A DNA stretch of 64,000 bases from Eledone cirrhosa (Eukaryota). The DNA is taken from positions 384,524,001-384,588,000 of the forward strand of contig OZ024740.1 in the NCBI GenBank assembly GCA_964016885.1. The letters are read 5' to 3'. The number at the start of each line of letters is the position of its first letter. The stretch's first letter is position 1. This document shows positions 951 through 63,047 of this stretch, piece after piece. Below the pieces are notes generated by a model, which worked only from the letters and a program-made list of their open reading frames with translations, ran no database searches and was not told the DNA's origin. Made by a program: the position numbers and the translations under genes.

Positions 951-1013
<63 letters not shown>

Positions 1014-1145
1014 ATACTTTGGGAGGGTCATGTTGCCAATAAGAAACACACGCACCAGTTGCTTTCACTTCAATTTATTATAATAAATTTATAATACATT
1101 TCTGGTGGGTTGGTTGGTTCCACAACCAGATAGTTGTTTATATAT

Positions 1146-1190
1146 AGTCATAGTTCTTTCGTCACACACTCTGTGACCTCTTCAGTGACT
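1146..1190 (-). ncRNA. Minimal type I hammerhead ribozyme, family A pLTR
   Basis: AGTCA-CTGAAGA-G-GTCACA(GAGTG)TGTGAC-GAAA-GAAC-TA-TGACT; stems I and II pair perfectly, stem III minimal. Confidence 0.85.
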
Positions 1191-1330
1191 GGGGATTCCT
1201 GTCTTTGTTCCTGTGCCTCCCCTTTGTTCTGTCCTACGCCATTTTGTTTCTGTGTGTGTGTTGTGTGCTCAGTCTGCGCATGCGTCACATCCGGGTGTCT
1301 GTGTGTGTTTATGTTCATTTATTTATTTGC

Positions 1331-2516
1331 AGGCGACATAGCTAACTTATTCATGGTATGGTGGGACAGTAGACTTAAACTTAAACTTAAAGAACAATTA
1401 GAAGACCCCTTAACCCTGATAATGTACTCCCGCTACGTAGATGATATAAACATCGTAGTTAAGACACCCTCACTAGAGAACAGACAGGAACTAGAGAAAA
1501 ACACAATGGAAAGCATCCAGCAAATAGAAAACTCCATCCACCAGAGCATTAGAGTTACTATAGACTACCCAAGTAAACACCCCAACCATCGATTACCTGT
1601 ACTAGACACAGAGCTCTGGTTAGATACCATTAACAACAAAAAATAAATCCTCCATTCCCATTATGCCAAACCCATGAATTCCAAACATCTGATCCACCGA
1701 AACTCGGTCATTTCGGACCATACCAAAATCAACATACTGATTGCGGATTTGGTACGGGTGATGAGAAATGTATCCCGCATGTGCAACCTCAAAGAACTAG
1801 AGAGACACATACAACACTTCATCCACCGTATGCAGTTCTCTGGCTACAATCAGAGAGATAAAATCAGAGTGTATAGAGGAGCCAGAACCAAATGGGAAAA
1901 AATGGTAAATAATGAAATAAATGGGACCTGCCCCTTGTATAGGAGCAAATTTTGGAATAGAATAGAAAGAACTAGGAACAAGGCTAATAGAATAAACTCA
2001 TGGTATGATAGCAATAAATACCAGAGTGTAATGTTCATCGATACAACCCCTAGAGGTGAATTAGCTTACAAATTTAGAAGGGCCCTAAATAAACATAAAC
2101 TCAATATTAAGATAGTAGAAAGACCAGGTACCTCCGTAAAAACACTTGTTAGCAAGACATACCCTTTCAAAGACCCTCATGTATAGATAAGAAATGTATA
2201 ACCTGTAAAATAAGCCCCCATATTAACTGTAAATGTAGTGTATAGCATGAGATGTATTGAAGGACAATGTAGAGACAAAAATATAGTGTACATAGGTGAG
2301 ACAGCTCGTAGTGTAGGGGAACGGATAAACGAACACTGGCGAGACCTTCAAGATAATAAAGAATCATCTGTACTCTACCAACATGCTAAAATAGAACACA
2401 AGAGTAAATTAGAGAACATAGAAATAAAAATAGAATCTACACGCAGAAAAGACGCAATGTTTAGACAAATTACAGAAGCAATTAAACATAAAAGAATTAC
2501 AACCAAAATTAAATAG
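1331..2516 (+). pseudogene. Disrupted PLE RT (C-terminal half) plus GIY-YIG endonuclease
   Basis: SRYVDDI, LPVLDTELW, YAKPMNS, VYSMRC..C...YIGETARSVGERINEH; stops at 1644 and 2184 plus frameshifts. Confidence 0.92.
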
Positions 2517-2756
2517 AAAATATGAGTGGAACAGCAACATCACAACTTACAATTAAGGACAAAATGAAAACACACACACACATAGAACAAACAACCAACC
2601 AGTAACATGTAAATAAACAAATAAATAAATGAACATAAACACACACTGACACCCGGATGTGGGGCATGCGCAGACTGAGCACAAAACACACACACATAAA
2701 TAAAATGGCGTAGGACAGAACAAAGGAGAGGCACAGAAACAAAGAAAGGAATCCCC

Positions 2757-2801
2757 AGTCACTGAAGATGTCACAGAGTGTGTGACGAAAGAACTATGAC
2801 T
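2757..2801 (+). ncRNA. Minimal hammerhead ribozyme, family A pLTR
   Basis: AGTCA-CTGAAGA-T-GTCACA..TGTGAC-GAAA-GAAC-TA-TGACT. Confidence 0.85.
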
Positions 2802-3011
2802 ATATATAAACAACTATCTGGTTGTGGAACCAACCAACCAACCAGAAATTTATAAATTTATAAATTTATTATAAATTTATTATAATAAATTGAAGTGAAA
2901 GCAACTGGTGCGTGTGTTTCTTATTGGCAACATGACCCTCCCAAAGTATAACAATATCGGTTTCAACACACGATTTCAGATAAAGAATCTTGCTAAACAA
3001 ATTCAGAAACG

Positions 3012-3097
<86 letters not shown>

Positions 3098-6664: not shown

Positions 6665-6796
<132 letters not shown>

Positions 6797-6805
6797 AGCT
6801 ATCCA

Positions 6806-8153
6806 ATAGAAGCTATCCAATTCTGGCTGGATAATTACCACAATGAACTCCCACAACGCATCAAAAAAGAATTCGTGATAGAAGGACTCCAATTTATATT
6901 GGAGAACAATGACTTCGTTTTCAATAACAAATCCTACAGGCAGAAATCTGGGACCGCTATGGGAACGAAAACAGCCCCCACTTATGCCAACCTAGTCATG
7001 GGATACCTGAAAATCACCCTCTACACTAAAGTACTAAACAAATTTGGAAACACTCTCCACTTACACATAGAAAAGAACTGGAAGCGATATCTAGATGACT
7101 GCTTCATCCTTTGGCACGAAAACATCGAGAAACTTAAAGAATTCCACACCCTTATAAATGGGCACCACACGAATATTAACTTTACGATGGAATACAGCCA
7201 TCAACAACTCCCCTTCCTCGACATCCTCATTAAGATTCATAAGAAAAAAATAGAAATAGACATATACTACAAGCCCACAGACTCCAAGCAATATCTCCCT
7301 TTCAACTCTTGCCACGCTAGACACGTTAAAATTAATATTCCTTACAACTTAGCCAAGAGAATCTGTACTATAGTATCCAATAAAAACACCTGTTACTTAC
7401 GGCTACAAGAACTAAAGGACACAATCATAGGCAGGGACTACCCTGCATCACTAATTGACAATGGAATCCAACGTGCCCTACAACTCAGTACCCAGGACCT
7501 TAGACACCCTAAAGTAAATCAACCGAAACTAAAAGCTATTCCATACATCTCCACACACAACACCCTCAACAATGAGGCCTTTGACACCATCCTCCAGAAC
7601 ATCCCTGTGTTAAAAAAGGACCATAGAATGAACCAACCAAATCCTTCGAACACACGATATCATAAAGAGCAAAAGACAATCTAAATCAATGAAAAACATC
7701 CTAACACATGCCAAAGTACTGTCAACCACAACAACGAAAGCCACAGTAAAAAAATGCGATGGACCCAACTGTGGCATATGCATCAACCTAATAGAGGGTT
7801 CGGAATTCTATTTCAAAGAAGAACAACGTTTTATAGTAAAACACAATTTCACATGCGCATCAGAAAACCTAATATATGTATTAACTTACTCAGGTTGTCG
7901 AGAACAATACATAGGCCAGACTAAAAACAGCATCCGCCAACGCATGACTGTCCATAGATCCCAAATTAAAATACGGGAATACAGAAAAATACCGCTGAGT
8001 GAACACATTGATACCTGTGCCGCCCAAAATTATCCCAACTTTAGAATCTTTCCCCTTTACAAATTTAAAGATAATGCCACCCACACCCAGCGCATCAGCA
8101 AGGAATCTCACTTTATTAACAAATACGGACCCCGTCTAAACACTTCTCCCTAA
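6806..8153 (+). pseudogene. PLE RT plus CxxxxCxxC linker plus GIY-YIG, one frameshift near 7640-7690
   Basis: [51 protein letters not shown]...QYIGQT..SIRQRM..H. Confidence 0.95.
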
Positions 8154-8612
8154 GACGAACCCACAACATACACACGTCAACATACATACCTACATCAGCA
8201 TACATCCTACATACATTTCTATCCACATATAAACACAATGACATACATAAACACACGTTCTATGGTGCAACACAAATATACACAAATTAGCATACCTTTT
8301 GATATTTATAGATATAAACGTGCCGACACACAACATACATATACGCACACATGCATTGCACACTGATGGGCACATACATATTTGTCCACAAATATTCCCA
8401 TACGGCAGGGCCTAATGGATTGCCCTTGCAGTACGTACAATCTGGACACACACTCACACACCCCTTGGTGTTATGGCAATACTATACATCATTTCACCCC
8501 TTTTATCATTAATGTTTTTGATGTTCTTTTGAGAGAATCGTTTTTGCAAATTACTGAAAATATCGAATAATGTACACCATTTTTTACCAGTATCACAAAA
8601 ATACTGGTCCAT

Positions 8613-9640: not shown

Positions 9641-9690
<50 letters not shown>

Positions 9691-9693
9691 ATA

Positions 9694-9882
9694 TAATTGT
9701 TTCTACTTTAGGCACAAGGCCAGCAATTACCCAGTGCATTACTGGTACTTTATTTTATCGACCCCGTAAGGATGAAAGGCAAAGTCAACCTCGGCGGGAT
9801 TTGAACTCAGATCGTAAAGGGACGTAACTATGCTGGATAGCATGGTGTCTTACCCTCTACCGATACTGACAATCCACCGCCC
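9694..9882 (-). mobile_element. tRNA-derived SINE, full-length copy
   Basis: Same about 195-bp unit as 34618, 43072 and 52874; B-box GAGTTCAAATCC; core GCCTTTCATCCTTACGGGGTCGATAAAATAAAGTACCAG resembles the Meta-SINE domain from memory. Confidence 0.85.
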
Positions 9883-9889
9883 TATATAT

Positions 9890-10130
9890 AGTAATAATAC
9901 TAAATTTTAAGACTAAAATCCAAAGAGGGCTCGATAAGGATAAATAGATATCAAATATATAAGAACCGTAGAGGAAATATTTATTAAAATAACAGATTAA
10001 AGTTTAAGCAAAGAATCGGTGCTTTCACTCTTAACAGGATCTTCTGAAACTAAACTTTTTTTTAGATTAAGAAGATCCCGTTAAGGGTGAAAGCAGCGAT
10101 TCTTTGTTTAAACATTAATCTGTTATTTTA

Positions 10131-10131
<1 letters not shown>
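9890..10131. mobile_element. Head-to-head pair of family C pLTR ends
   Basis: 9890-10053 minus and 10070-10131 plus, both matching 3295-3452; hammerhead-like motif at 10001-10051 (-). Confidence 0.8.
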
Positions 10132-10164
<33 letters not shown>

Positions 10165-10810: not shown

Positions 10811-10813
<3 letters not shown>

Positions 10814-11233
10814 TATGTATGTATCTATACGTACATACATATATGTATACAGACGTACAGTAGTATGTTTATATATATACATATATGCACATATATATAT
10901 ATATATGCACGTATCGGTTTACCGAACATTTATTATAATTCTCGGTTTGTTTGTTTGTAAACAAAAAAAAACAGCCCGAATTACGCCGTACGGTGTTTAG
11001 GCAAACACGTCACCTTTTTGTTCAACACTGACACAGGAACGATGTACTAGTTTCAAGCTTATTAGCTATCGCCAGCATCGTATACCTTCCTGCCAGATGG
11101 TTGAACGTCTGAAAGTATATACTTTCCTTATGCATATTAACGGCTGAGCAGCCTAATTTGCATATCGAGTGAGTTCAGTCGGCCGGGCACACCATACTAA
11201 GAGTGAGAAATGAAATTTCGTTTTCATTCTATT

Positions 11234-11236
<3 letters not shown>
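10811..11236 (-). mobile_element. ORF-less hammerhead element family H with short inverted arm (about 11194-11236)
   Basis: Reverse complement of about 12978-13330; right arm matches 12920-12953. Confidence 0.8.
11040..11080 (-). ncRNA. Minimal hammerhead, family H (A6G change)
   Basis: CGATG-CTGGCGA-TAGCT(AATA)AGCTT-GAAA-CTAG-TA-CATCG. Confidence 0.75.
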
Positions 11237-11284
<48 letters not shown>

Positions 11285-11290
11285 ACTTTA

Positions 11291-11466
11291 TCTACTTTAG
11301 GTACAAGGCCAGCAAATACTCAGTACATTACTGGTACTTTATTTTATCGACCCCGTAAGGATGAAAGGCAAAGTTAACCTCGGCGGGATTTGAACTCAGA
11401 TTTTAAAGGGACGTAACTATGATAGAAAACATTGCGTCCAACCCTCTACGGATACTGCCAATTCAA
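11291..11466 (-). mobile_element. tRNA-derived SINE copy
   Basis: Matches 9694-9882. Confidence 0.8.
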
Positions 11467-12250
11467 CGGTGATGTACTTGTTTGGCGATGTTTTTTATAT
11501 GAAATCGTGTGCCGAAACAATAGTGTTTTGTTATTATTTCTTTCAATATTATATATATATCACCTTGATCACCTTGACCGACCAGTCTGTAGAGCGCCAT
11601 TCGGCACCGCTGATCACAGCACGTCGTGCTGTTTTAGCAATAAGATAGTGCCATCCCACTGGGTGGCCGGGCAGGCCATTATATATATATATGTATGTAT
11701 GTATATATATATGTATGTGTGTGTGGGGAAGTGTTTAAATATATACATGCGTATGCGTGTGTGTAATTGTGTGAATAAATGAAACATTTATTTATTACCT
11801 CCTGTAATCTGAGCCAAATAACCACTGCCATCGATATAGAAAATTTCATATGGAACGTCATTCTCTATTATAGACGAGGTCAATTAATTTTTTGAATATC
11901 CCAAAGACCCACTCATTGCAAGTTTTGTCTGAGTTTTTATTGATCAATTCTTTGGTTACTGACAGTGGCTTGCCTTTCCTGACAGCTACGATAAAATCAG
12001 CTGGACCGTAGGAGATTAAATATAATATGCAAACACACAAATTCACACACACACGCACAGGCACACTCACACACACATGCACACACACACACACATATAT
12101 ACTATATTCATATATGTATATATTTATGTGTATGCGCGTGTGCATGTGTGTGGGAATATATATATATATATATATGCGTTCGGATCTAGCTGTCGAAACG
12201 GCCGGAGCTCAGCCGTCGAGATCCTAACTCTTTTCCTCTATATATATATA

Positions 12251-12817
12251 TTTCGTTTCTGAATTTGTTTAACAAAATTCCTTATTTGAAAACGTGTGTT
12301 GAAACCGATATTGTTATATTTTGGGAGGGTCATGTTGCCAATAAGAAACACACGCACTAGTGTTTTCACTTCAATTTATTATAAATTTCCGGTTGGTTGG
12401 TTGGTTCTATAACCGGATGGTTGTTCATATATTGTCAAAGTTCTTTCGTCACACATTCTGTGATTTCTTCAGTGACTGTGGGTTATTTTCTTTATTTTGT
12501 GCCTCTCCTTTGTTCTGTCCTACGCCATCTTGGTTTTGTGTGTGATGTGTGCTTAGTTTGTGCATGTGTTACATCCGGGTGTCTGTGTGTGTTTTTATTT
12601 GTTTATTTATTTGTTTATTTACATGTTACTAGTTAGTTGTTTGTTCTATGTGTGTGTGTTTTCATTTTGTCCTTAATTATAAGTTGTAATGTTGCTATTC
12701 CATTCATGTTTTCTATTTAATTTTGGTTGGAGTTCATTTATGTTTATTGCCTCTGTGATTTGTCTAAACATTGCGTCTTTTCTGTGTGGAGATTCTATTT
12801 TTATCTCTACGTTCTCT
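12251..12817 (-). mobile_element. Diverged family A 3' fragment (GIY-YIG C-terminus plus pLTR) with hammerhead at 12433-12477
   Basis: Reverse complement of about 2411-3013; ENVEIKIESPHRKDAMFRQITEA; AGTCA-CTGAAGA..GAAAGAAC-TT-TGAC. Confidence 0.88.
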
Positions 12818-13328
12818 ATATATGTGTGCATGTATGTATATATATATATATACATACCACTGTACGTCTGTATACATATATGTATGTACGTATACATACT
12901 TATATTTAAGTAACAGCCGTACTAAGAGTGAGAAATGAAATTTCGTTTCATTTTTTCCGTTTATCGTTTTCGGTTCACCCGGCCGATTAACCCACTCGAT
13001 ATGCAAATTGGGCTGCTCAGCCGTTAATATGCATAAGGAAAGTATATACTTTCAGACGTTCAACCATCTGGCAGGAAGGTATACGTTGCTGACGATAGCT
13101 AATAAGCTTGAAACTAGTACAGCGTTCCTTTGTCAGTGTTGAACAAATGAGCAACGATGGTTGCTAGACACTACTGCTTAATTCTGGATGTTTGTTTACA
13201 AACACACCGAGCATTATAATAAATGTTCGGTGAATCCATACGTACATATATATATGTGTGCATGTATGTATATATTTATACATACTACTGTACTTCTGTA
13301 TACATATATGTATGTACGTATACATACT

Positions 13329-13330
<2 letters not shown>
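12818..13330 (+). mobile_element. Family H element, about 432-bp unit with about 80-bp terminal direct repeat
   Basis: 12824-12903 repeats at 13256-13330; no ORF; one hammerhead. Confidence 0.8.
13083..13125 (+). ncRNA. Minimal type I hammerhead, family H
   Basis: ACGTTG-CTGACGA-TAGCT(AATA)AGCTT-GAAA-CTAG-TA-CAGCGT; palindromic stem III. Confidence 0.88.
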
Positions 13331-13360
<30 letters not shown>

Positions 13361-14155
13361 AAGAGAGAGAGGGGGAGATGTTTACCAGCAAAAATACCTA
13401 TATTCATGTATATACTGTATATATGTGTGTGTATGTATGTATATATATATATTCTTTTATATATATATTATATGTGTGTGTGTATGTGTCATAGGTATAT
13501 ATTTACATATATCTGAATGCTTATATAGTGTGTTTTAGAGTAGTTGAGAGAGGCAAGGTGAGAGAGAAAGAGAAAGATATTCAGAGATGGACGGATGTAT
13601 ATATCCGATACATGGAAATGGTGAGTTTAGAGTGAACGAAGGAAGGAGTGTTGAGTGACAAGAAGAAAAGACGAGGAAAAAAATAAACAATGTAAATGAT
13701 ATTCATGCATTCATCCATATTAAAATATTCATAGTTGTAAATAACAAGCATTATATCATATTATCAATGAAGTTGATGATATGAGTATTTTTGTCATGGC
13801 ATCATAGTTTCAAAAAAGTGAAAAATAAAAAAAATAAATAAACACATTAGACATAAATATAAATATATAGATATATATTTCGAAATTCAAAAACTCATAG
13901 CGCAGTTTTAAAGAGACAGCAATCTATCATACATGGTTTTAATAACCCGCACCAGAACTATATAACGTGATATTTAAAATTAGTTTGTATTTTTCCATCT
14001 CGAAGCAACATATATTATTAAGGATTGTTATTATTCATTTCTAAAAATGCATACTAATTGATATATCTGCTCTTTTCTTCATGAACTTATTTCTAAATAT
14101 TTTTAAATATGTGTATATATATATGTATATGTATATATGTATATGTATATGTATG

Positions 14156-14237
<82 letters not shown>

Positions 14238-14239
<2 letters not shown>

Positions 14240-14768
14240 AGTATGTACACGTACATACATATATGTATACAGACGTACAGTAGTATGTATATATATATAC
14301 ATACATGCACACATATATATATGTACGTATGGATTCATCGAACATTTATTATAATGCTCGGTGTGTTTGTAAACAAACATCCCGTATTAAGCAGTAGTGT
14401 CTAGCAACCATCGTTGCCCGTTTGTTCAACACTGACAAAGGATATGCAAATTGGGCTACTCAGCCGTTAATCTGCATAAGGTAAGTATATACGTTCAACA
14501 ATCTGGCAGGAAGGTATACGTTGGTGACGATAGCTAATAAGCGTGAAACTAGTACAGCGTTCCTTTGTCAGTGTTGAACAAGCGAGCAACGGTGGTTGCT
14601 AGACACTACGGCTTAATACGGGATGTTTGTTTACAAACACACCGAGCATTATAATAAATGTTCGGTGAATCCATACGTACATATATATATGTGTGCATGT
14701 ATGTATATATATATATACATACTACTGTACGTCTGTATACATATATGTATGTACGTGTACATACTTAT
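14238..14768. mobile_element. Family H head-to-head fold-back; plus arm has a mutated hammerhead (14518-14560)
   Basis: 14238-14442 is the reverse complement of 14561-14768. Confidence 0.85.
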
Positions 14769-14770
14769 AT

Positions 14771-14870
<100 letters not shown>

Positions 14871-19849: not shown

Positions 19850-20431
19850 TATATAGTTAAAGAATGAAGAGTAACATGGTTGGCTGTACAATAAGGTCTT
19901 TAATTAAAGTACTGACAATTGTTCGTCGATTAGGTGAGTCTAGAGTTCGCCAATCGCTTGAGGTTGCGTCATTCGATCTCCAATACATTATTTACCTCTG
20001 ATCAACACATCAGAGTACGTAGATATGAAAGTGATTCACTCGAGGCAAGTCTTCTATAGAAAAATATAATGTATAATCAAAACAATAACATCAATAATAA
20101 AACATATATGGTAAATGTGTTGACCAGAGGTAAATAATGTATTGGTGATAGAATGACACAACCTCAAGCGATTAGCGAACTCTAAACTCACCTGATCAAC
20201 GAAACAATTGTCAGTAGTTTAAATAAAGCCCTTATTGTACAGCCAACCATGTTGCTCTTCATTCTTTAACTATTATTACTCCAAGTATAACCGGCATAGA
20301 AATTACCGCGAACTCGCTGCATAACTATGAAAACATCTTGTTGAGTCAAACAAGGCCGTACGTTAAAACTATGCACGACGCAGAGTACTCATAACCTCAA
20401 ACTGGATTACCTATAACGATAACTTGTTATC

Positions 20432-20434: not shown

Positions 20435-20468
<34 letters not shown>

Positions 20469-20478
20469 AAAAAGTATG

Positions 20479-20575
20479 ACCCGGACGGCAGCGCTCAAGC
20501 CGTTTCGACGGCTATTTCTGGACTAATTTAGAATTTTTAGCCTGGTGAATTAATAGCCGAACTTGTCAACGGGGT
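20479..20575 (-). ncRNA. U3-A8 variant hammerhead, family D copy 1
   Basis: CCCG-TTGACAA-GTTCGGCTATT..AATAGCCGTC-GAAA-CGGC..GCCG-TC-CGGG. Confidence 0.78.
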
Positions 20576-21097
20576 ACTTCCTTATATGGGAAGATTGTAG
20601 TTGTGAAGAGGATTGGTTAAAATGTGTTGTAAACACAAATAAGTATATCATGGCATTTGGTGGGAGGTAGGGGTGGCTGAACTTGCCTGTAGAACAATAG
20701 GGGTGTGAGTGGAGCGGGCAAGCGTTGAAAGTGATATGTATACAGCAGGTTCTAAGGATAGTGTATGAATTGGATGAGGGAGATTATAGAATAGGTAAAT
20801 CGAATGAGAGTAGGAGACAATAAAAGATAATAGAAAAAAAATTAAAAAATATATAGTGAGAAATGAATAAGAAAAAAACAATGCTATCATACAATTACAG
20901 GTAAATAAGTTGAGAATAGAAAAAACTTGTAGAAATTGACTAGTACCAGAACTGATACAGAATTAAAGGGGTTTCACACGTATGCTATAAGAAGTTAGTA
21001 AAACGTATTCGACCAATTATATCTTAAAATTACGGGGGTGGGAGAACTTATGCTACAGAGGCCCGATGGGCTGCATCGGGTAGGCGAAAGAGGAAAA

Positions 21098-23387
21098 TCA
21101 GACGAGGAAGAAAATAGAGGGTGGAAGGAAGTGATAGGAAGAGACACGGGGAAGAACAAAACAAAGAGGAAAAAGAAAAGAGATACATCTACCTAAGTAA
21201 GCTGGGGTTTGCCCTAACTTATTTGCCAAGTGAGGGCGGGGATCAGCCCTTGTCCAACCACCCGGGTTGTAATGGGGTTTGAAGGCGAGGTAAGTCCTAC
21301 GCAATCTGTGTTTGCATGCGGTTACCAGTTCGTCTTTCTTGTTTAGGAGTTGGTCCTTCGAAAACAGCATTTGTAATGTTTCCTCCGAGCACAAGTTACA
21401 CGGGCGGCGTCCTCCCGTGTATGAGTTAGCTCTGGAAAGTAAGCTCCAAGTGAGATTGTAGGTTATATTATTATCTTGGAGGTCCCAGATGTGGTCCGAA
21501 AGTGTAGTGGAATGTCGCCGGACCGGGTTTCGGAAAGTATGTCGGTGTTGGTAGAGCCGGGCTTGAAGTCACACGCGGTTAATCCTATATAAGCTTTGTT
21601 AGGGATGTCCGTCCTCACGTTGCACTGGTAGATCACGTTACGTTCTCAGCATTTTGTGTTGAGGAGGCACGTAGATCAATCAGGGCAGTTACACCTCATG
21701 GTCGGCTCTCCACTGATGTCTAGGTTATTTCTTCCATAGTGGTTGAGTTTTTGTTGTTTGAGGAGACGAGGTTCTGTGCGAAGTTAGTTGTGGTGCTGTA
21801 GGAGAGTTTGATGGTGTTTTTGTTGATTATGTTGTGGTAGCGGTGTTGTAGTGGGAAGTGTTTTTCGAGGAGTCTAAAGTAGATTTTCCCGATAGGTGTT
21901 GCCACCTCGGGATTATGGGGAGGATTGAACCACGCTACAGTGCGTGAGCGGCGGTATCGCCTGTTAGTACCGCTAAGGGAAGCTGGATAAATGGATATTT
22001 CCTCCCGGAAGCTACTCCGCTTGAGGGCCTGGTTGTAATGAGGCGCGTGTTCGTCGAAAATCTGCTCATTAGCGGACAAACAAGATATGCGGAGGGAGAT
22101 GTTTTTAACCAGGTTATTGGTGATGTTTCTAGGATGGTTAGAGCGTCGGTGGATGTAGTGCAGGTTGTCGTTTGGTTTCCTGTATGGGTAGTACAGATCA
22201 TTTCCGAGGATAAGGGTAATGTCCAGGAAATTGACTCGGGTTAGGGACGTTTGTAGGGTGATTTTAAATCCCCAGTCCCGGAAGAAGTTGATTAGTTGTT
22301 TACGGACCCGGTATGTACTACTGGGGTTGTACCCTTTGAGGGTGATGAGCCCATCATCCCGGTACAATCCACCGCCGGATGCAGGAAACATGTCTGTGAG
22401 TTTAAATCGTAGGAATAATCCTATAAGATATGTGACCTAGGCCGAATCCGTCGCGCCCATACTGACGTCGAAGGGGGAATCGGGAGATCTCTTTATCCAC
22501 TTGGAGTTGTCGAAAAGTAGGACTGTCTTCCTGGCGTGGAGAATGATATTTCTTTCCTGGTCAGTGATGGGTGTGAGTGTTTCGGCAGAGTCCAAGACGG
22601 CCATAAGGAGCATAGTAACTCTCTATGTCAAACTGGATGAATTTTGTGTCTCGTTTGTCCCCCATATTCTTGAACCATGAAATTACTTGCTGGGTGCTGA
22701 CCCATAGGCTAAGTCTCACGTTTTGCTAAACTTTTGGTATAACTCGGTCTAGGATCTTTTTATTGATTCTCCCTATGTCCGACTTCGTTGGGTTTATAAA
22801 CCTAATGGATGGTTTGCGGTCGAAGTCGGATTTGTGGTCCTTCAGTTTGAAGTAGGGAGTCCGTGGGTCTAGGGGTCAGTGAGGTCGGCGAACCCGAGGC
22901 TGGAGGTAATTTGGTGTCCATCTCGATTTATGTCCTCGATAATTGAATGGTTAGCCTTTTTATAGGTGGAGTTTAGGCTGCTCCTGATCAGTGGGTGGTA
23001 TCTGTCGGGGTTGACGAAGTAGAGGTTTCCAGTTTTGACCGAGTGCACCATGATATCGTTGATGTTTTCATACTGTGTTATTTTTCTACGGAGTTGTTGT
23101 AGGAATCTGTTGTGTCTGCGTTTGAATTTAATGCTCTTGACCAGGTGGAAAAGGTCGTTCTCGAAGGGTGAGAGCATAGGGTTCGGAGGGGGAGATTTGT
23201 AGGTATTGAATCCGAATCTCTCCTTGGTGTGGAAGTCCTGATTGTCACGGTATCTACCGTAGAAAAAAGTTCTCTATCTTAGTCTTTTCGCAAAAAGGTC
23301 GATTTTTTGCGTCAGCATCCGAAGGTAAAGTTTTCTCGGTGGAACTGGGATGTTCTTGGTGGAGATATCGATGTTGTGTTTTCGCAT
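21098..23387 (-). pseudogene. Full-length but disrupted PLE polyprotein (RT plus GIY-YIG)
   Basis: MRKHNIDISTKNIP, KTGNLY, RFINPTKSDIG, FDVSMG, GLYRDDGL, NFLDIT, SNHP, WFNPP, YIGLT; several stops and frameshifts; 3' limit approximate. Confidence 0.93.
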
Positions 23388-23570
23388 CGTGCGGGTGAAG
23401 AAACTTGAGCTGGGTGGAAAAGTCGGGATATGGCGTGGTACAGTTGGAAAGTGTTCTACTAAAGAGATAGGAGCTAAATAACAAAGAATTGTGGTAAGGA
23501 ACCAGATGGACAATAACGCACTAGAGTACTCAATACTTAGGTCAGTAGAGTGGGAAATAGGAAAAAGTAT

Positions 23571-23669
23571 GTCCCCGACGGCAGAGCTCAAGCCGTTTCG
23601 ACGGCTATTTCTGGACTAAATTAGAATTTGTAGCCTGGTGAATAGATAGCCGAACTTGTCAACGGGGTA
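23571..23669 (-). ncRNA. U3-A8 variant hammerhead, family D copy 2
   Basis: Same architecture, about 185 nt upstream of the ORF ATG. Confidence 0.75.
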
Positions 23670-25170
23670 CTTCCTTATATGGGAAGATTGTAGTTGTCAA
23701 GAGGATTGGTTAAAATTTGTTGTAAACACAAATAAGTATATCATGGCATTTGGTGGGGGGGGGGGGTTGAACTTGCCTGTAGAACAATAGGGGTGTGAGT
23801 GGAGCGGACAAGCGTTGGAAGTGATATGCATACAGCAGATTCTAAGGATAGTGTATGAATTGGAGAAGGGAGGTTATAGAATAGGTAAATCGAATGAGAG
23901 TAGGAGACAATAAAAGTTAATAGAAAAAAAAATTAAAAAATATATAGTGAGAAATGAATAAAAAAAAATGACAATGCTATCAGGTTAATAGGTTGAGAAT
24001 AGAAAAAACTTGTAGAAATTGAGTAGTACGAGAACTGATACAAAATTAAAGGGGTTTAACACGTATGCTATAAGTAGTTAGTAAAACCTATTCGGCCAGT
24101 TCTATCTTAGAATTACGGGGGTGTGGGAACTGCTGGTACAGAGGCCCGATGGGCTGCATCGGGGTAGGCGAAAAGGGAAAAGCAGACGAGGAAGAAAATA
24201 GGGGGTGGAAGGAAGTGATAGAAAGAGACAGAGGGAAGAAGAAGACAAAGAAGAAAAGAAAAGAAATGAGATACACCTACCTAAGTAAGCTGGGGTTTCC
24301 CCTAACTTATTTGGTAAGTGTGTGTGTGTGTGGGGGGGGGGGGGTTATCAGCCCTTGTCTACCCGCCCGGGTCGTTATGTGGTATGAGGGCGAGGTAAGT
24401 CCTACGCAATTTTTGTTTGTATGCGGTTACCAGTTCGTCTTTCTTGTTTAGGAGTTGGTCCTTCAAAAAACGCATTTGAAAGTTTCCTCCGAGCATATGT
24501 TACACGGACGGCGTCCTCCCGTGTAAGAGTTAGCTCTGGACAGAAAGCTCCAAGTGAGATTATAGATTAAATTATTAACTTGGAGGTCCCAGATCTGGCC
24601 CGAAAGTGTAGTGGCATGTCGCCGGACCGGGTTTCGGAAAGTGTGTCGGTGTCGGTAGAGGCGGGTCTTGAAGTCACACGCGGTTAATCCTATATTAAGC
24701 TTCGTTGGAGGTGTCCATCCTCACGTTGCACTGGTAGATCACGGCACGTTCTCGGCATTTTTTGTTGAGGGGGCACGTAGATCTATCAGGGAAATTACAC
24801 CTCCTGGTCGGCTCTCCACTGATGAATAGGTTATTTCTGCCATAGGGGTTGAGTTTTTTGTTATTTGAGGAGACGAAATTTTGTGCGAAGTTAGGTGTGG
24901 TGCTGTATTATTTGTTTCTATTATCTTTTATTGTCTCCTACTCTATTTATAACTATTCTATAACCTCCCTCGTCCAATTCATACACTATCCTTAGAATCT
25001 GCTTAACAATATCACTTTCAACGCTTGACCGCTCCACTCACACCCCTATTGTTCTACAGGCAAGTTCAGCTAACCCTACCTCCCACCAAATGCCATGATA
25101 TACTTATTTGTGTTTACAACAAATTTTAACCAATCCTCTTGACAACTACATTCTTCCCATATAAAGAAGT

Positions 25171-25268
25171 ACCCCCTTGACAAATTCGGCTCTTTATTCA
25201 CCAAGCTAAAAATTCTAATTTAGTCCAGAAATAGCCGTCGAAACGGCTTGAGCTCTGTCGTCGGGGGT
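25171..25268 (+). ncRNA. U3-A8 variant hammerhead, family D copy 3
   Basis: ACCCCC-TTGACAA-..CGGCT..AGCCG..-GAAA-CGGC(TTGAGCTCT)GTCG-TC-GGGGGT. Confidence 0.78.
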
Positions 25269-25380
25269 CATACTTTTCATATTTCCCACTCTATTACCCT
25301 AAGTATTGAATACTCTGGTGCGTTATGGTCCATCTGGTTCCTTAACACAATTCATATGTTATATATATATATATATATAT

Positions 25381-26376: not shown

Positions 26377-26427
<51 letters not shown>

Positions 26428-26435
<8 letters not shown>

Positions 26436-26803
26436 GAATATAAAATGAAAGTGCTTTTTTTTAAAAAAAGGAATTTATTAGGTATTGACATATGTTTCTG
26501 TAACAGATGGAATACCTATGTATCACTGCTTGCGTAATCATATAATGTTAGCAAGTATTCGATAGCAAATGTATACTTGCTAACATTATATGATTACGCA
26601 AGCAGCGATACATAGGTATTCCGTCTGTTACAGAAACATATGTCAATACCTAATAAATTCCTTTTTTTTAAAAAAAGCACTTTCATTTTATATTCATCTT
26701 TTCTACATTTTCTCCGGAATATAATTAATACTCGTTGAGCAAACCTACACGTACGCTGTTCATCTCTAACGTAACGATATATTATCACTACATTATTCAT
26801 AAC

Positions 26804-26812: not shown

Positions 26813-26852
<40 letters not shown>

Positions 26853-26894
26853 AAAGAACACAAGAACGTTTACAACATCAAACAATTTTTATTG

Positions 26895-26939
26895 GCTTAC
26901 AATGTTTCTTCCTTACGTAACCGTAGACTTCTTCAGAGC
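26895..26939 (-). ncRNA. Minimal hammerhead, family E
   Basis: GCT-CTGAAGA-..TACG(GTTA)CGTA..-GAAA-CATTG-TA-AGC. Confidence 0.72.
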
Positions 26940-29571
26940 TATAAAAGGGGTTTGATTGGTGTTATGGACTCTACCAACCAAACATTCAAGAACAAAGAGT
27001 AAAGAGAGTAAAGTGCAAAAGCAGGGGACAATAAGTCTAATTTTGGTGCGGGAGGGTGAGGTGTGGGTCCTTGTTTACTAGCTGTGTCATATTCATTCCC
27101 GGGAGTCGAGTGGTTAGTGGAGCCATAGATGGGGTGGCGTCGATAGTAGGGTGCAGAGGGTGTGCAGAGGCTACACACACGCAAAGGGCATACAATATAT
27201 ATATAACGGAGGAGAAAGTACATGAGGTAATTAGAAATGGAATAAGAGTAATAATAATAATCTATAGTTAATAATGTATAATAAGGCATGGGGATGATTA
27301 CACTATAATAAGGTATAAAAGTAGGAATAAGGTAAAATATAAAGCAGGATAAAAATGAAAGTAAGAATAAAGATAAAAAAATATATATAAAAAATATATA
27401 GAGAATAAATAAAAAATATAAGCAAGTATTAGAAAGGGAAAAACACAATGTAAAAAAACAGATTTTGTCAAATAAAAATATTATAAATATGGGGGGAGAA
27501 AACGGGAGAGAGAAATATAAACAAATGTGATTAGTTGAGAGAATATAGGATGATAATAGTTATGTCAAGTTTATACATCTTAATAATAAATAATCTGTAT
27601 ATCAGAGTTACACATCCTTCAATTCACTTCCAAGTTCAACCCACATGGCATAGTCCATCGCTCATCTTTGCGGTCGTGTGCGTTTGTGTTTGACCCCACA
27701 GCAGATGCACAAGTTCGTAAATTTCAATGCAGATAGAAATCTATTTGTGCTTACCCGGACATTGACGGAGGATCCAATATTCCTAGTTCATTGCCGACCC
27801 AATATGTGTGTGGTGTTATTTTGGTCGTGTACTTCGTTATATCGTGTACTTCGCTATGTGTCGCCGAAAGGTTATCCGGAAGGAACTCTCGGAGAGAGAA
27901 TTTTTTCTGTAGAAGTCTTCTCTATATGTGGTGTTTGGCATGAATTCCTCCTATAATACTCTTCTTTGAGAGGAGCACGATATGTAGAGTAACACATATG
28001 TATTGTCGTAGTTGAAACTGAGAACCACCACCCCTCCTGCTGACCCAAATGTTTACTGAGGACCGGAACACCATTCTCCACAATATAAGAGAGGAATGCG
28101 CTTGCCGGAATATTGATGACCAAAACATAACATTCCAAGGTAATGGTAAAACACAGTGAATGGTAAACACGACCAGAACATCATAACATGCACATCGGAG
28201 CAACAGAGATATAATATCAATAAGCGAATCAATTGAATTTTTTGAGTTGAAATACATATAAATATGTGTCTGTGTGTATATGACACACGTACACATGAAG
28301 AAACTGCTGACCTAAATGTATCTGTCATGCCTGTCTGAATTCCCAGGAGAATTTTCGGTCAGTTACTATCTTGACCGCTTACCCTCACAATTACTACGTA
28401 GCGGTTCTTGCACGTGACTGCTAGACCCGGATGGAACGAAGATGAAGAATTTCCTTGCGTACCGTTTGGTACCACAGATGCGATCTCACTCTGCCACGTT
28501 AATGTTCAATCGACACCAAAGTTCTACGTTCTGTGCAATAGAATTGAATCCAACCACCGACAACATAGTTGGATGACCGATAATCACACCAAATCGGAGT
28601 ACTGTGATCCTTGTGATTTCGAGATATACAACCACTGACACTGTTACGAAGACCAGAAAACCATACTCCATAATATTGAACCAAGTGATTGATTTGTGCA
28701 ACCAAAATAACACCACACACATATTGGGTCGGCAATGAACTAGGAATATTGGATCCTCCGTCAATGTCCGGGTAAGCACAAATAGATTTCTATCCGCATT
28801 GAAATTTACGAACTTGTGCATCTGCTGTGGGGTCAAACACAAACGCACACGACTGCAAAGATGAGCGATGGACTATGCCATGTGGGTTGAACTTGGAAGT
28901 GAATTGAAGGATGTGTAACTCTGATATACATATTATTTATTATTAAGATGTATAAACTTGACATAACAATTATCATCTTATATTCTCTCAACTAATCACA
29001 TTTGTTTATATTTCTCTCTCCCGTTTTCTCCCCCCCTATTTATAATATTTTTATTTGACAAAATCTGTTTTTTTACATTGTGCTTTTCCCTTTCTAATAC
29101 TTGCTTATATTTTTTATATATTCTCTATATATTTTTTATATATATTTTTTAATCTTTATTCTTATTTTCATTTGTATCCTCCTTTATATTTTACCTTATT
29201 CTTACTTTTATACCTTATTATAGTGTAATCTTCCCCATGCCTTATTGTACATTATTAACTATAGATTATTATTATTACTCTTATTCCATTTCTAATTACC
29301 TCATGTACTTTCTCCTCCGTTATATATATATTGTATGCCCTTTGCGCGTGTGTAGCCTCTGCACACCCTCTGTACCCTACTATCGACGCCACCCCATCTA
29401 TGGCTCCACTAACCACTCGACTCCCGGGAATGAATATGACACAGCTAGTAAACAAGGACCCACACCAAAATTAGACTTATTGTCCCCTGCTTTTGCACTT
29501 TACTCTCTTTGCTCTTTGTTCTTGAATGTTTGGTTGGTAGAGTCCATAACACCAACCAAACCCCTTTTATA

Positions 29572-29616
29572 GCTTTGAAGAAGTCTACGGTTACGTAAGG
29601 AAGAAACATTGTAAGC
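29572..29616 (+). ncRNA. Minimal hammerhead, family E (C3U)
   Basis: Mirror of 26895-26939 with TTGAAGA. Confidence 0.62.
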
Positions 29617-29761
29617 CAATAAAAATTGCTTGATGTTGTAGACGCTCATGTGTTGTTTAACATATATATACGGCTCTGCTCCAAAGTATAGAGCTAATTA
29701 TTATGCTGCCAATACCTTAATGGGACACGGGTATGCAATACCTAACTCCTATTAACCTAAG

Positions 29762-32988: not shown

Positions 32989-34617
32989 AAACTCACACTG
33001 ATGTATATATATACGTTTGTGAGCGTGTATGTGTTTAAAATTACATACATGTTGAGAGTTTGCAGATATTTGTATTTATATACTCATGTGTTTAAAATCA
33101 TATTATATCTGTTTTTGAAGTCGTTCATAGCATGATACACACACACACACTTATATATACACTCGCACACAAGCACACACGTACGCGCACACACATATAT
33201 ATATACATACGCACGCACACAAGCACACACGCACACACACACACACATATATATATACACGCACGCACACAATCACACGTACACGCGCAGGCACACAAGC
33301 ACACACGCACACACAAACACGCACGCACACGCATATATGTATAAAAGAAAATCGTATATGTGTGTCTGTGTATGTATGTATCTATACATGTATGTGGAAG
33401 TATTTTGTTTGTACATCATGATCAGGTGTTACAAATCTCGTCTCACCAGAGAAATTTATTGTCTAATAAGATGTCTGTCAATTTTATATAAGCTAAGAAA
33501 ACGGTATGCACTTACTTCGTAATATTGAGTACCTTTTATAATGGATTGTTGCGTGTGTGTGTGCTTGTGTGTATGTGTAAGTGTATGTGTATACGTGTGG
33601 GTGTACGTGCGTTCTTACCTAGTACACATAAACAACAATATGTAAACATAAGTAACTAGAATTCAATCCAAACAGAAATATAACGCATATATGTTAAAAT
33701 GTTTCCATACACGAATAATACACACCCAAATATACGTACGCATACAAAACTGCACGCAGAGATAAATCAAAGCCCAAATGTACGCGATACACACATAAAT
33801 ACATTATTACGATACACACATAAATACATTATTACGATACACACATAAATACATTATTACCAGTAATGCACTGGGTAATTGCTGGCCTTGTGCCTAAAGT
33901 AGAAACAATTATTACTATCTCTCTCTCACACATACACACACACGCACAGATATGTCTGTTGTATTCACGTAAGTGTATATTTGTTTGTATACATACATAT
34001 ATATAAACATACGTATATGTATATATACACGCATACATACACGCATACATACATACACACATATACTATATGGATGGTATATGTACATGTATCATCATTC
34101 AGACGTACGCCCACAAACACTCACTGACACACGTGTATACTCTTGCTTCCAGACGCATTCACACATTCGCTCGCTGAAATACGTATTGACTCAATCAGCT
34201 AACCCAGACACACATATACATCTATACACATATGTTAACAAAATCAGAATTACACACACAGGCCTACACACAAATTGCAGGTGATTTGAGTATTATAAAT
34301 CATCGGCTTTGCAATATGAAATTTGAATCTTATTCGTTAATGATAGTTTTAAGAACTTCATCAGCATTACTTGTCTCTCTGAGACGTCCTTCATATGTTG
34401 GTCATAGTTAGTAAAATGAGTCGATCAATTTTATCTATTTGTTTGTTTTTGTGAATTGAAACTTTGCTGTGAAGACAATCAAGCCTTGGCCCTAGCTTGC
34501 GATAATTATATAGCCGATTGTTTTTTTAGTATACATGTATGCATGATGTATGTAAGTATATAGGTAGATAGGTATGTATGCAGGCATGTATGTTCTGGTT
34601 TTATTATTTTATATATT

Positions 34618-34812
34618 AAGGGCGGTGGATTGGCAGTATCGGTAGAGAGTCGGACGCCATGCTTTGCAGCAAAGAGTTACGGCCCTTTATGGTCTGAGTT
34701 CAAATTCCGCCGAGGTTAACTTTGCCTTCCATCCTTACGGGGTCAATAAAATAAAGTACCAGTAATACACTGGGTAATTGCTGGCATTGTGCCTAAAGTA
34801 GAAACAATTATT
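34618..34812 (+). mobile_element. tRNA-derived SINE, full-length copy
   Basis: Same family as 52874-53640. Confidence 0.88.
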
Positions 34813-34959
34813 TTATATATTTTTGCCAACAGAGAAGGTGAAAGAGAGAGCTGATTCCTAAAGACAATTAGGTATATATGCATGTCCAAGATGGATTCAG
34901 GATGTTTTGAAACTTCTTCAAGAAATACATTTATTAATTTGAAAGAATTACCGAATACT

Positions 34960-43071: not shown

Positions 43072-43256
43072 GATTGGCAGTATCGGTAGAGGGTCGGACG
43101 CCATGCTTTCGAGCATAGTTACGTCCCTTTACGATCTGAGTTCAAATCCCGCCGAGGTTGACTTTGCCTTTCATCCTTACGGAGTCGATAAAATAAAGTA
43201 CCAGTAATGAACTGGGTAATTGCTGGCCTTGTGCCTAAAGTAGAAACAATTATTAA
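43072..43256 (+). mobile_element. tRNA-derived SINE copy
   Basis: Family match. Confidence 0.88.
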
Positions 43257-43934
43257 TATTAACTGTTTTCCAGACATACAGAGTGTCACCCAAAAATGTA
43301 TACATTTTTGGGGGACACCCTGTATATACGTTTTGCACAGGATGATGATATCTAATTTAGGCGCAAGGCCAACAATTGTGATGAAAAGAAATTCGTATAT
43401 AAATCCAGTACTTTACTGCTATTCTATTTTATAAAACTCGATGTTTACAAAACTCGATGATATTCTGCAAAGCATTTTTCCGATGCACTAATTTCTCTAC
43501 GAAATGCATCGCCCATATTTTACACATGTTAATGCAAACGCGAAGACATTATGTGTTGTCGTCTGTAAATATATGAAAACATTATGTGTTCTGGCAATTG
43601 AATAGTGTTACGTGTAACGGATTTTCTAACTATGATTTTGGCAAAATATCAAATCTCGATGTAATATTGACGGATACATTTTCATTGATATTTTCAGTGA
43701 GTGGGTGTGTGTCTATGCGTGTGTGTCTACGCATATTTCTGTGTGTAAGGGTTATAATGTGCACGTGTAGCCGGTCTCCCATGAGACTGCTTTTCATGGG
43801 CTTCCTTGCGTACTTTAATAACAGGGTTATCAGGTTTCTTTTCTCATTATTTTTCCAGTAACTGGATTTTGAATTTGAAATCTGAAATCACAGCCAAGAC
43901 CTGTATTTTCATCATCGAATTGCACTTGATAGGT

Positions 43935-47361: not shown

Positions 47362-47776
47362 TAATGAATGAAAAGTATAGAAATTATTATTATATATATA
47401 TAGGGAAAGAGTCAGGAACCGAACGGCTGAGCTCCAGCCGTTTCGACAATATATATATTGAAACCTCGAGTCCTCAATATATATATTCTTCAGGACTCAA
47501 ACATAAATATATATATATCAGATATTGAGTTAGAAACTCAAAATAGTCTCATACAATTAAATATCTCAAAGAAAGAAGTTTTTCTAAGCCCTGTATTATA
47601 ATTGAATATACAAGAGAGATAAATACAAATATAAACATACATGTGTTCGAATTGTAAGAGAGCAAGTTCACTAGGGTGAAAAAATACTAACTATAACAAT
47701 ATGGTTTGCCAGTCTCAATTTAAAGTAATAAATCAAGAAAAAGAAGAACAAACCTATATTGGGCAACTGCCTGAAA

Positions 47777-47853
47777 CACCCAGACAGCTTTGGTAGCTGT
47801 TTCGAAATTTATTCAGCGAGGGAAATTACCAAGTTTCTGCTCTTCAGTGCGTG
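47777..47853 (-). ncRNA. Type I hammerhead, family J
   Basis: CACGCA-CTGAAGA-GCAG..TTTC-GAAA-CAGCT(ACCAA)AGCTG-TC-TGGGTG. Confidence 0.85.
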
Positions 47854-48197
47854 TAAAAATTAGTAATCCCTCCGCTTCTAAGTATATCAGAAGACTGAAT
47901 AGTGTGCGAATATAAAATAACGCACATGGCATCAGAACCTAGCGTGTAAACATACCCTAAAAATAGCAGCCGGGTTTATATGACATTTAAATTAGCTCGG
48001 CAAGAAGGAGCCGACAATATCAGATATTGAGTTAGAAACTCAAAATAGTCTCAATCAATTAAATAAACCCGGCTGCCATTTTTAGCAACGTATGTTTATG
48101 AGACACGCTAGGTTCTGATGCCATGTAGGTTATTTCATATTCGCACACTATTCAGTACCCTGATATACTTAGAAGTGGGGAGGATTACTAATTTTTA

Positions 48198-48274
48198 CAC
48201 CCACTGAAGAGCAGGACCTTGGTAATTTCCTTCGCTAAATAAATTGCGAAACAGCTACCAAAGCTGCCTGGGTG
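48198..48274 (+). ncRNA. Type I hammerhead, family J (U16.1C)
   Basis: CACCCA-CTGAAGA-GCAG..TTGC-GAAA-CAGCT(ACCAA)AGCTG-CC-TGGGTG. Confidence 0.8.
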
Positions 48275-48446
48275 TTTCAGGCAGTTGCCCAATATAGGTT
48301 TTTTTCTTCTTTTTCTTGATGTATTACTTTAAATTGAGTCGGGCAACCGTATTGTTATAGTTAGTATTTTTTTCACCCTAGTGAACCTGGTCCCTTACAG
48401 TTCGAACACATATGTTTATATTTGTGTTTATCTCTCTTCTATATTC

Positions 48447-48815
<369 letters not shown>

Positions 48816-48975
48816 TATATATGGGCTTTCCTGATGATCTCTTCCGAATTAAGTACTTTTAGTCCTGCAGATGCCATTTCTACATTAAATAGTTTTGCTC
48901 TGCTATGTAATAAGCACCTTACTTACTGTGGGTATCCCCGATTGAATCTAATCTGGTATAAATATATATATATAT

Positions 48976-49126
48976 ATAACGAAGGAGTTGCGGTAAGGGA
49001 CCAGATGGATCATAACGCACCAGAGTACTCAATACTTAGGGTAGTAGAGTTGGTAATAGGAAAAAGTATGACCCCGAAGACTATAGCCGTCGAAACGGCT
49101 TGAGCTCTGCCGCCGGGGTCATACAT

Positions 49127-49131
<5 letters not shown>
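48976..49131. mobile_element. Second family D pLTR fold-back
   Basis: Minus arm 48976-49077 and plus arm 49084-49131. Confidence 0.8.
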
Positions 49132-49164
<33 letters not shown>

Positions 49165-52860: not shown

Positions 52861-52873
52861 TTATTATTATTAT

Positions 52874-53640: not shown

Positions 53641-53647
53641 ATATTAT

Positions 53648-59127
<5,480 letters not shown>

Positions 59128-59135: not shown

Positions 59136-60579
<1,444 letters not shown>

Positions 60580-60594
60580 ATATATATATATATA

Positions 60595-60744
<150 letters not shown>

Positions 60745-63030: not shown

Positions 63031-63047
63031 ATATATATATATATATA

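What the first reader, a model, noticed from the sequence alone, without database searches (positions are those of the whole stretch)
12818..13330. About 432-nt ORF-less, terminally redundant hammerhead unit (retrozyme-like, family H)
Seen: the unit tail (12824-12903) recurs 432 bp later, and the 3' tip sequence runs straight into the unit start. A second copy (10811-11190) begins at the same CCCGGCCGA point. Stem I covaries between copies (CGTTG/CAGCG versus CGATG/CATCG). Known: retrozymes are non-coding HHR retroelements with circular or multimeric RNA intermediates, proposed to use PLE enzymes in animals. Inference: a non-autonomous mini-element copied from a circular or tandem RNA.
Basis: partly seen in the sequence, partly recalled or inferred. 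Interest (0 to 1): 0.72.

Follow-up and report, generated by a model that had tools for sequence, protein, structure and literature searches.

The report
Hammerhead retrozyme with Penelope-type insertion ends
This is one of at least ten thousand copies of a 425-base non-coding repeat that carries a hammerhead (self-cutting RNA) motif and sits in TA microsatellites with the same paired ends as this genome's Penelope-like retrotransposons, so it is a new member of a known class (animal retrozymes) that likely borrows their enzyme and is probably copied from an RNA circle.

Summary
Real, and a known kind. 12818-13333 is 1.2 turns of a 422-432-nt ORF-less unit with a type I hammerhead (13083-13125). 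The tail-to-start junction has 11,020 exact matches in G000 and the ribozyme core 9,768. A sister family shows compensatory changes in both stems. There is no fixed start: CCCGGCCGA is only a truncation point. The 3' ends are fixed at two sites 59 nt apart, beside (TA)n. 152 of 291 sampled insertions are back-to-back inverted arms, and 108 of 117 classifiable pairs use one end of each type. The genome's coding Penelope-like elements follow the same rule (15 of 15, 33 of 34). Copies read through the cut site (40 of 43). Variants shared by both arms are A-to-G biased (17 vs 6), which suggests an edited RNA template. Not shown: cleavage, a circle, expression, or which element supplies the enzyme. 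The finding's copy abuts an inverted Penelope fragment, but such junctions were not enriched. The scan noted this pattern before on other DNA, apparently for this same family (e1-8665316).

The parts
12817..13333 (+). Retrozyme arm, about 1.2 units, 5'-truncated inside the unit's TA-like segment and ending at fixed end A
   Evidence: 97% identical to its best relatives over 12940-13250
12895..13322 (+). One full period (428 nt), non-coding, 36% GC; predicted highly self-paired as a circle
   Evidence: -136 kcal/mol, z -7.8, 0 of 40 shuffles as stable; longest stop-free stretch 67 aa
12906..12964 (+). 59-nt 'tail' between end A (unit position ~11) and end B (~70); present on only one arm of most inverted insertions
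13083..13125 (+). Type I hammerhead motif: stem I 13083-88/13120-25, CUGACGA 13089-95, stem II with U.U at its base, GAAA 13110-13, 2-bp stem III in palindromic ACUAGU, predicted cut after A13119
   Evidence: cleavage not tested
13334..13371 (+). (TA)n target remnant followed by (GA)n
12256..12818 (-). 5'-truncated 3' part of Penelope-like family A (end of GIY-YIG frame, 3' UTR, ~58-60-nt tail ending at (TA)n). It is butted back-to-back on the retrozyme's 5' end with a 2-nt TA overlap: either a hybrid insertion or two insertions in one microsatellite
   Evidence: not enriched over chance
12432..12478 (-). Minimal hammerhead motif of the family A fragment, unrelated in sequence to the retrozyme's
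10811..11190 (-). Second insertion, long arm (older subfamily, 83% to the reference unit), ending at end A; core mutated to CUGGCGA
11192..11241 (+). Second insertion, short opposite arm ending at end B (with tail)
14232..14773 (.). Third insertion: inverted pair (14232-14442 minus, 14441-14773 plus), both arms ending at A (a rare AA case); core damaged

Best explanation
This is a copy of a high-copy, non-coding, hammerhead-bearing tandem element (a non-LTR retrozyme) that is likely pasted into (TA)n microsatellites by the reverse transcriptase and GIY-YIG endonuclease of a Penelope-like element, probably from a circular RNA. Shown: the unit, the motif, tens of thousands of dispersed copies, seamless arrays, two fixed 3' ends 59 nt apart, variable 5' ends, inverted arms with one end of each type, and the same rule in coding Penelope-like families. 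Inferred, step by step: (1) tandem copies are transcribed on the hammerhead strand; (2) the ribozyme cuts after A13119, probably as a dimer because stem III has only 2 bp, releasing monomers; (3) a host ligase closes them; (4) the borrowed enzyme nicks (TA)n and primes cDNA at site A from one side of the break and at site B from the other; (5) each cDNA runs round the template for a variable length, and the two are joined at their truncated ends. A Neptune-type family with an intact frame (family A) is a candidate partner, not an identified one.
For: Counts: junction 11,020 and core 9,768 exact matches. Motif: 6 of 13 pairs change on both sides between this family and a 61%-identical sister family, 93% of cells are paired, and slid controls give 21-48%. 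Ends: 388 of 442 outer 3' ends are at A or B, and 141 of 155 A/B ends lie beside (TA)n against 12 of 30 other ends. The unit's own long TA-like stretch is seldom used as an end. Inverted pairs: AB 108, AA 5, BB 4, one or both ends elsewhere 35, of 152. In loci picked only for end A, the far end was B in 31 of 39. Coding families: A 15 of 15 AB; C 33 AB, 1 BB, 5 with an unclassified end. Inverted arms and a one-sided tail are described as PLE hallmarks in PMC8557442. Template longer than one unit: 193 of 485 arms exceed 430 nt, and 40 of 43 arms that reach the cut site pass it. One template per insertion: median identity is 98.7% between tandem units, 97.4% between opposite arms and 92.8% between loci. 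RNA template: variants shared within an insertion are A>G 21 vs T>C 6 (p 0.003), while unshared ones are 73 vs 64.
Against: No RNA data (see Tried and rejected), so cleavage, circles and expression are untested. Only 1 of 9 predicted Xenopus retrozyme dimers cleaved in vitro. This motif has U.U at the base of stem II, as in the weakly cutting axolotl HHR_Amex2. The isolated 61-nt motif folds no better than shuffles (z -0.8). RNAalifold on 54 copies did not recover the hammerhead and gave a covariation term of -0.33. Of 14 predicted pairs with a variable site, 6 are broken in some subfamily. No sequence similarity to any Penelope-like terminal repeat was found in 1.58 Mb of masked loci. The tail length matches family A (58-60), but the sister retrozyme's tail is 67-72 nt and other families have about 47-157. 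The A>G signal is small: 17 vs 6 when fully shared (p 0.02) and 13 vs 4 distinct sites (p 0.03). Each such variant also occurs in 1-4 other loci, so it may be inherited from an earlier edited copy. In 20 of 32 inverted pairs the partner arm was not among the closest 5% of sequences. The loci were picked by pattern or best match, mostly on C1, not at random.
Confidence: 0.8

Rival explanations
1. Same element and same Penelope-type enzyme, but the template is a long uncut linear multimer transcribed from tandem source loci, and the hammerhead cuts rarely or not at all.
For: cDNA passes the cut site in 40 of 43 arms, which an uncut multimer also allows. The core is weak (U.U at the base of stem II, 2-bp stem III). 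Arrays of about 10 units exist as possible sources. Shared variants could come from a homogeneous source array.
Against: Hammerhead stems are kept through compensatory change between sister families, which argues for selected cutting. Copying linear templates with 5' truncation should shorten arrays each round (inference). All 17 fully shared A>G variants are in both arms, which is simplest if one edited unit was read repeatedly.
Confidence: 0.3
2. The copies are 5'-truncated ends (pseudo-LTR plus 3' UTR) of an autonomous Penelope-like element, and the redundancy is its usual partial tandem.
For: Target, inversion and tail are those of PLEs. In Xenopus, 24 of 57 retrozyme families match known TEs, nearly all PLEs, at their termini, so descent from one is plausible.
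Against: The unit closes on itself: the junction (11,020) is as common as the core (9,768), and arrays are seamless. No recurring coding extension was seen 5' of 118 single-direction copies. A search for related hammerheads listed only further 466-469-nt tandem families among the first 100 of 4,248 matches.
Confidence: 0.05
3. A DNA-level satellite or fold-back (MITE-like) repeat spread by recombination or rolling-circle DNA replication, with an incidental hammerhead.
For: Tandem arrays and long inverted arms occur. Local duplications of whole insertions were seen (L115, L148).
Against: Fixed 3' ends with variable 5' ends, the AB rule shared with RT-coding elements, and a strand-specific A>G excess are not expected from DNA-level spread.
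Confidence: 0.05
4. About this copy only: the inverted family A fragment and the retrozyme arm entered in one event, as a hybrid two-arm insertion, which would name family A as the helper.
For: Direct back-to-back joint with a 2-nt overlap, where relatives of A continue. The A arm ends at B and the retrozyme arm at A, as the rule predicts. Ages are similar (95-96% and 97% to the best relatives).
Against: The retrozyme's 5' end lies in its own TA-like segment, so two insertions in one microsatellite explain it equally well. Among 74 direct 5' junctions, 3 had an inverted library arm and 2 a same-direction one, against 2.6% and 2.1% at 1,410 random points. Other such joints involve family C and a C-like family (L061, L053).
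Confidence: 0.3

Closest known systems
Metazoan non-LTR retrozymes (coral 220-245, mussel 350-390, axolotl 330/350 nt; Cervera and de la Pena 2020, PMC7229834; Li, Clavereau and Pollet, bioRxiv 10.64898/2026.07.22.740005)
   Same: Non-coding tandem unit in the 150-450 bp range, GC below 45%, one type I hammerhead per unit, thousands of copies, predicted self-paired circle. The U.U at the base of stem II and the 2-bp stem III resemble axolotl HHR_Amex2.
   Different: Sequence not compared with the published families. Circles, cleavage and expression were shown there and are not tested here. The parts I read do not describe (TA)n targeting, inverted two-arm insertions or two fixed ends; they propose PLE mobilisation from co-occurrence and, in Xenopus, pLTR homology. 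No pLTR homology was found here.
EN+ Penelope-like elements, Neptune type (Craig et al. 2021, PMC8557442; Cervera and de la Pena 2014, PMC4209133)
   Same: (TA)n targets, 5' truncation, an adjacent inverted copy, a tail at one end only, and a type I hammerhead with short palindromic stem III. [quoted passage not shown]
   Different: The finding encodes nothing and repeats seamlessly. Its tail (59 nt) is longer than the 30-40 bp quoted. Its hammerhead differs from family A's. The clade of family A was read from the linker motif, not from a tree.
Plant LTR retrozymes (Cervera et al. 2016, PMC4918200; listing only, features from the review PMC7761336)
   Same: Non-autonomous, hammerhead-processed, circular intermediates.
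   Different: They have type III hammerheads in LTRs with PBS, PPT and 4-bp TSDs. Here the motif is type I, there are no LTRs, and the ends abut (TA)n.

Membership tests
Non-LTR retrozyme | Type I hammerhead in each unit | tested here: met
   Core, three stems and NUH triplet present; 9,768 exact core matches; compensatory changes against a sister family. Rfam gave no hit at gathering thresholds.
Non-LTR retrozyme | Short tandem units (150-450 bp), dimers to multimers, GC below 45-50% | tested here: met
   Period 422-432, about 10 units in L071, GC 36-38%
Non-LTR retrozyme | No protein-coding capacity and no LTR architecture | tested here: met
   Longest stop-free stretch 67 aa; the redundancy is a partial extra turn. 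PBS/PPT were not scanned for.
Non-LTR retrozyme | Highly self-paired predicted circular RNA | tested here: met
   z -7.8 and -7.2 for two natural monomers. The reverse strand also scores (-7.2, -4.5) and part of the signal is the TA-like segment, so this is weak support.
Non-LTR retrozyme | Self-cleavage of the transcript | not testable with these tools
   needs in vitro transcription
Non-LTR retrozyme | Expression as linear and circular monomer RNA | tested here: inconclusive
   No RNA holder was listed. Indirect signs only: read-through of the cut site and A>G bias.
Autonomous EN+ Penelope-like element | ORF with RT and GIY-YIG endonuclease | tested here: not met
   None in the unit and no recurring coding extension
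Autonomous EN+ Penelope-like element | Insertion signature: microsatellite target, 5' truncation, inverted adjacent copy, one-sided tail | tested here: met
Autonomous EN+ Penelope-like element | Unit homologous to the pseudo-LTR of a coding element | tested here: inconclusive
   None found in 1.58 Mb of fetched loci or in the listed matches; that is about 0.05% of the genome
Plant LTR retrozyme | Type III hammerheads in LTRs, PBS, PPT, 4-bp TSD | tested here: not met
   Type I topology, no LTRs, ends in (TA)n

The most novel reading that the evidence does not exclude
Both arms and all units of an insertion are written from one A-to-I-edited RNA circle by a Neptune-type Penelope enzyme priming at two fixed sites, and this very copy is a hybrid in which the enzyme copied its own RNA into one arm and the retrozyme into the other, naming family A as the helper.
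Probability: 0.2. Interest if true: 0.7.

Novelty: new member of a known kind. Interest (0 to 1): 0.42.

Why it matters
The papers read propose, but do not show, that Penelope-like elements mobilise animal retrozymes; a 2020 review says the repeats carry no motif that reveals the helper. Here the insertion ends obey the same two-site, inverted-arm rule as coding Penelope-like elements in the same genome. That turns the proposal into a testable prediction, and it gives a 425-nt substrate for studying Penelope priming, which is still undefined. The class itself is known, and this scan has recorded the same signature many times, so the added value of this copy is modest.

Tried and rejected
Rfam scan: no match at gathering thresholds. 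Expression: no RNA holder listed. Laying four contig sets showed the unit, with loose (TA)n ends at 12964 in organism A, and only low-depth pieces in organisms B and C; nothing is concluded about expression or range from this. Pile-up of 5' ends at the cut site: not seen in 485 arms (27 at unit 211-230, similar to other bins). A small cluster 4-11 nt past the cut was post hoc and was dropped. Hybrid insertions as evidence of the helper: not enriched. Search for a parent pseudo-LTR: none in masked loci, and one search listed only sister tandem families. Tail length as a helper fingerprint: rejected as weak. RNAalifold consensus: uninformative on near-identical copies. The end-B pattern was one T too long for the commonest young form, so its 2,417 matches, like the 3,884 for end A, are lower bounds only. 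The repeat finder was swamped by microsatellites. Literature: seven searches found no paper describing these ends for retrozymes. The supplement of PMC7229834, which shows further invertebrate retrozymes, could not be read, and bioRxiv supplements are closed, so the family or its host group may be listed there.

Full report
Observation. The repeat is there. The tail at 12824 recurs at 13256, and junction to junction the period is 428 because of a (TA)n length difference. A type I hammerhead lies at 13083-13125: stem I, CUGACGA, a stem II with U.U at its base, GAAA, a 2-bp stem III in a palindromic hexamer, and A13119 at the cleavage position. The unit has no stop-free stretch above 67 aa. Rfam finds nothing at gathering thresholds. 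The window holds two more insertions, 10811-11241 and 14232-14773, both inverted pairs with damaged cores.

Scale. In G000 (3.0 Gb, animal; the host was not determined by any search) the 28-nt junction occurs 11,020 times and the 32-nt core 9,768 times as exact matches, with 0 for the reversed controls. In 400 kb taken blind from 20 places there were 6 loci, 2 of them weak, and 0.83% of bases; this extrapolates roughly to 30,000-45,000 loci. L071 holds about 7.5 units in one direction and 2.3 in the other, and they share array-specific letters. Several subfamilies exist.

Anatomy of insertions. I parsed 295 non-identical insertions and tallied 291 (the 3 in the window and 1 in a Penelope-picked locus were left out). 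The loci came from exact core or junction hits on C1, exact end-A hits on C1, best DNA matches and the blind sample. Groups under 100 nt or touching a locus edge, exact duplicates and loci overlapping the window were dropped. 152 are inverted pairs, 133 single-direction, 6 other. Of 442 outer 3' ends, 189 are at unit position ~11 (A), 199 at ~70 (B) and 54 elsewhere. Pairs: AB 108, AA 5, BB 4, 35 with at least one end elsewhere. Where loci were picked for end A alone, the far end was B in 31 of 39. In the first 126 insertions, 141 of 155 A/B ends adjoined (TA)n against 12 of 30 others (the test window included the last 6 nt of the match). 5' ends are spread round the unit.

Link to Penelope-like elements. 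Craig et al. (PMC8557442, passages read) list partial tandems, an adjacent inverted copy, a tail at one end and (TA)n bias as PLE traits. Coding families in the same loci obey the same rule: family A 15 of 15 pairs AB; family C 33 AB, 1 BB, 5 unclassified. Family A is young (95-97%) and has an open frame of at least 911 aa with a Neptune-type linker (clade read from the motif only). Its tail (58-60 nt) equals the retrozyme's (59), but tails vary by family and the sister retrozyme has 67-72, so this is weak. No homology between the unit and any Penelope-like end was found in 1.58 Mb. The finding's own 5' end is butted on an inverted family A fragment (12256-12818), with ends B and A as the rule predicts. 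But 3 inverted and 2 same-direction library arms at 74 direct junctions do not exceed the random rate of 2.6% and 2.1%, so a hybrid event is possible and unproven.

Ribozyme. Within the family one stem I pair takes three paired forms (77, 26 and 16 of 125) and a distant pair switches G-C/A-U (36 vs 34), while 6 of 14 variable predicted pairs break in some subfamily. Against the sister family, 6 of 13 pairs change on both sides and 93% of cells pair, versus 21-48% when slid (7 sequences but essentially two lineages). Activity is untested. The axolotl motif with the same U.U cuts weakly as a monomer and better as a dimer (PMC7229834, passages and parts 2-4 of 6 read). Dimer action of short-stem-III motifs is described in PMC4209133 (part 1 of 4 read). 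In the 2026 preprint only 1 of 9 dimers cleaved (parts 1-3 of 5 read).

Template. 193 of 485 arms exceed one unit. Among 79 arms with the exact junction, 40 of the 43 that reach the cut site pass it, so a cut linear monomer is not the main template. Units and arms within an insertion are more alike than between loci (98.7, 97.4 and 92.8%), though only 12 of 32 partner arms rank in the top 5%. Following a lead from notes e1-8803689 and e1-8803865 on sister families, I tested strand bias at 273 near-fixed sites, leaving out L148. Variants shared within an insertion are A>G 21 vs T>C 6 (p 0.003); unshared ones are 73 vs 64. Fully shared ones are 17 vs 6 (p 0.02), at 13 vs 4 sites, and all 17 are in both arms; each also occurs in 1-4 other loci. 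This supports an RNA step on the hammerhead strand, likely with A-to-I editing (my inference). It does not separate a circle from an inherited edit. No RNA run was listed.

Comparison and novelty. The element meets every sequence criterion of a non-LTR retrozyme and fails the coding criterion of a PLE while working like one at insertion. Seven searches found no paper with these ends for retrozymes. The review PMC7761336 (passages) treats the helper as open. PMC10886601 (passages) was not relevant. Supplements could not be read. Within this scan, 25 findings match the same words, and e1-8665316 describes a 422-nt unit with ends 59 apart in this genome, very likely this family. I had measured the end rule before seeing those notes, and they are not counted as support.

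Verdict. New member of a known kind. Confidence is 0.8 for a Penelope-mobilised retrozyme, about 0.6 within that for a circular template, and the helper family is unidentified. Interest 0.42.

Noticed in passing
L028:1-750, L072:2380-2940, L216, L024, L048; G000:C1:5738324-5752446: Sister retrozyme families of 466-469 nt (61% identical over 250 columns in L028) with a G-C pair at the base of stem II and homologous end sites 67-72 nt apart. One array has about 31 units plus an inverted arm; 4,248 matches to the pattern. Probably the families of e1-8803865 and e1-8819791.
   Followed up: partly
window 1006-3014 and 59208-60607; L101:3-2735: Young Penelope-like family A: RT, C-x4-C-xx-C linker, C-terminal GIY-YIG, minimal hammerhead in the 3' UTR, 58-60-nt one-sided tail; open frame of at least 911 aa in L101.
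   Followed up: partly
window 6790-8600, 20440-25370, 26841-29670, 47597-48453, 19853-20430, 63020-63729: Several more Penelope-like or inverted two-arm families with family-specific tails (about 85, 83, 157 and 47 nt).
   Followed up: partly
window 20440-20520 (-), 12180-12225, 48700-49160: Family C ends carry a GAAA-first motif with flanking helices and no CUGANGA found upstream by my pattern. It may relate to the scrambled-order hammerheads in other notes of this scan; not folded or tested.
   Followed up: no
L218:2656-2929: A copy of the older subfamily with the whole hammerhead hairpin deleted.
   Followed up: no
window 52852-53657: About four tandem copies of a ~200-nt repeat that also occurs dispersed (9647-9911, 11236-11468, 34601-34825, 43072-43261).
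   Followed up: no
window 53764-56698 (-): Fragments of a LINE-type reverse transcriptase element (Pfam RVT_1, E 9e-23).
   Followed up: no
window 9977-10138, 26423-26708, 62943-63031: Short fold-back elements beside (TA)n, MITE-like or very short two-arm insertions.
   Followed up: no
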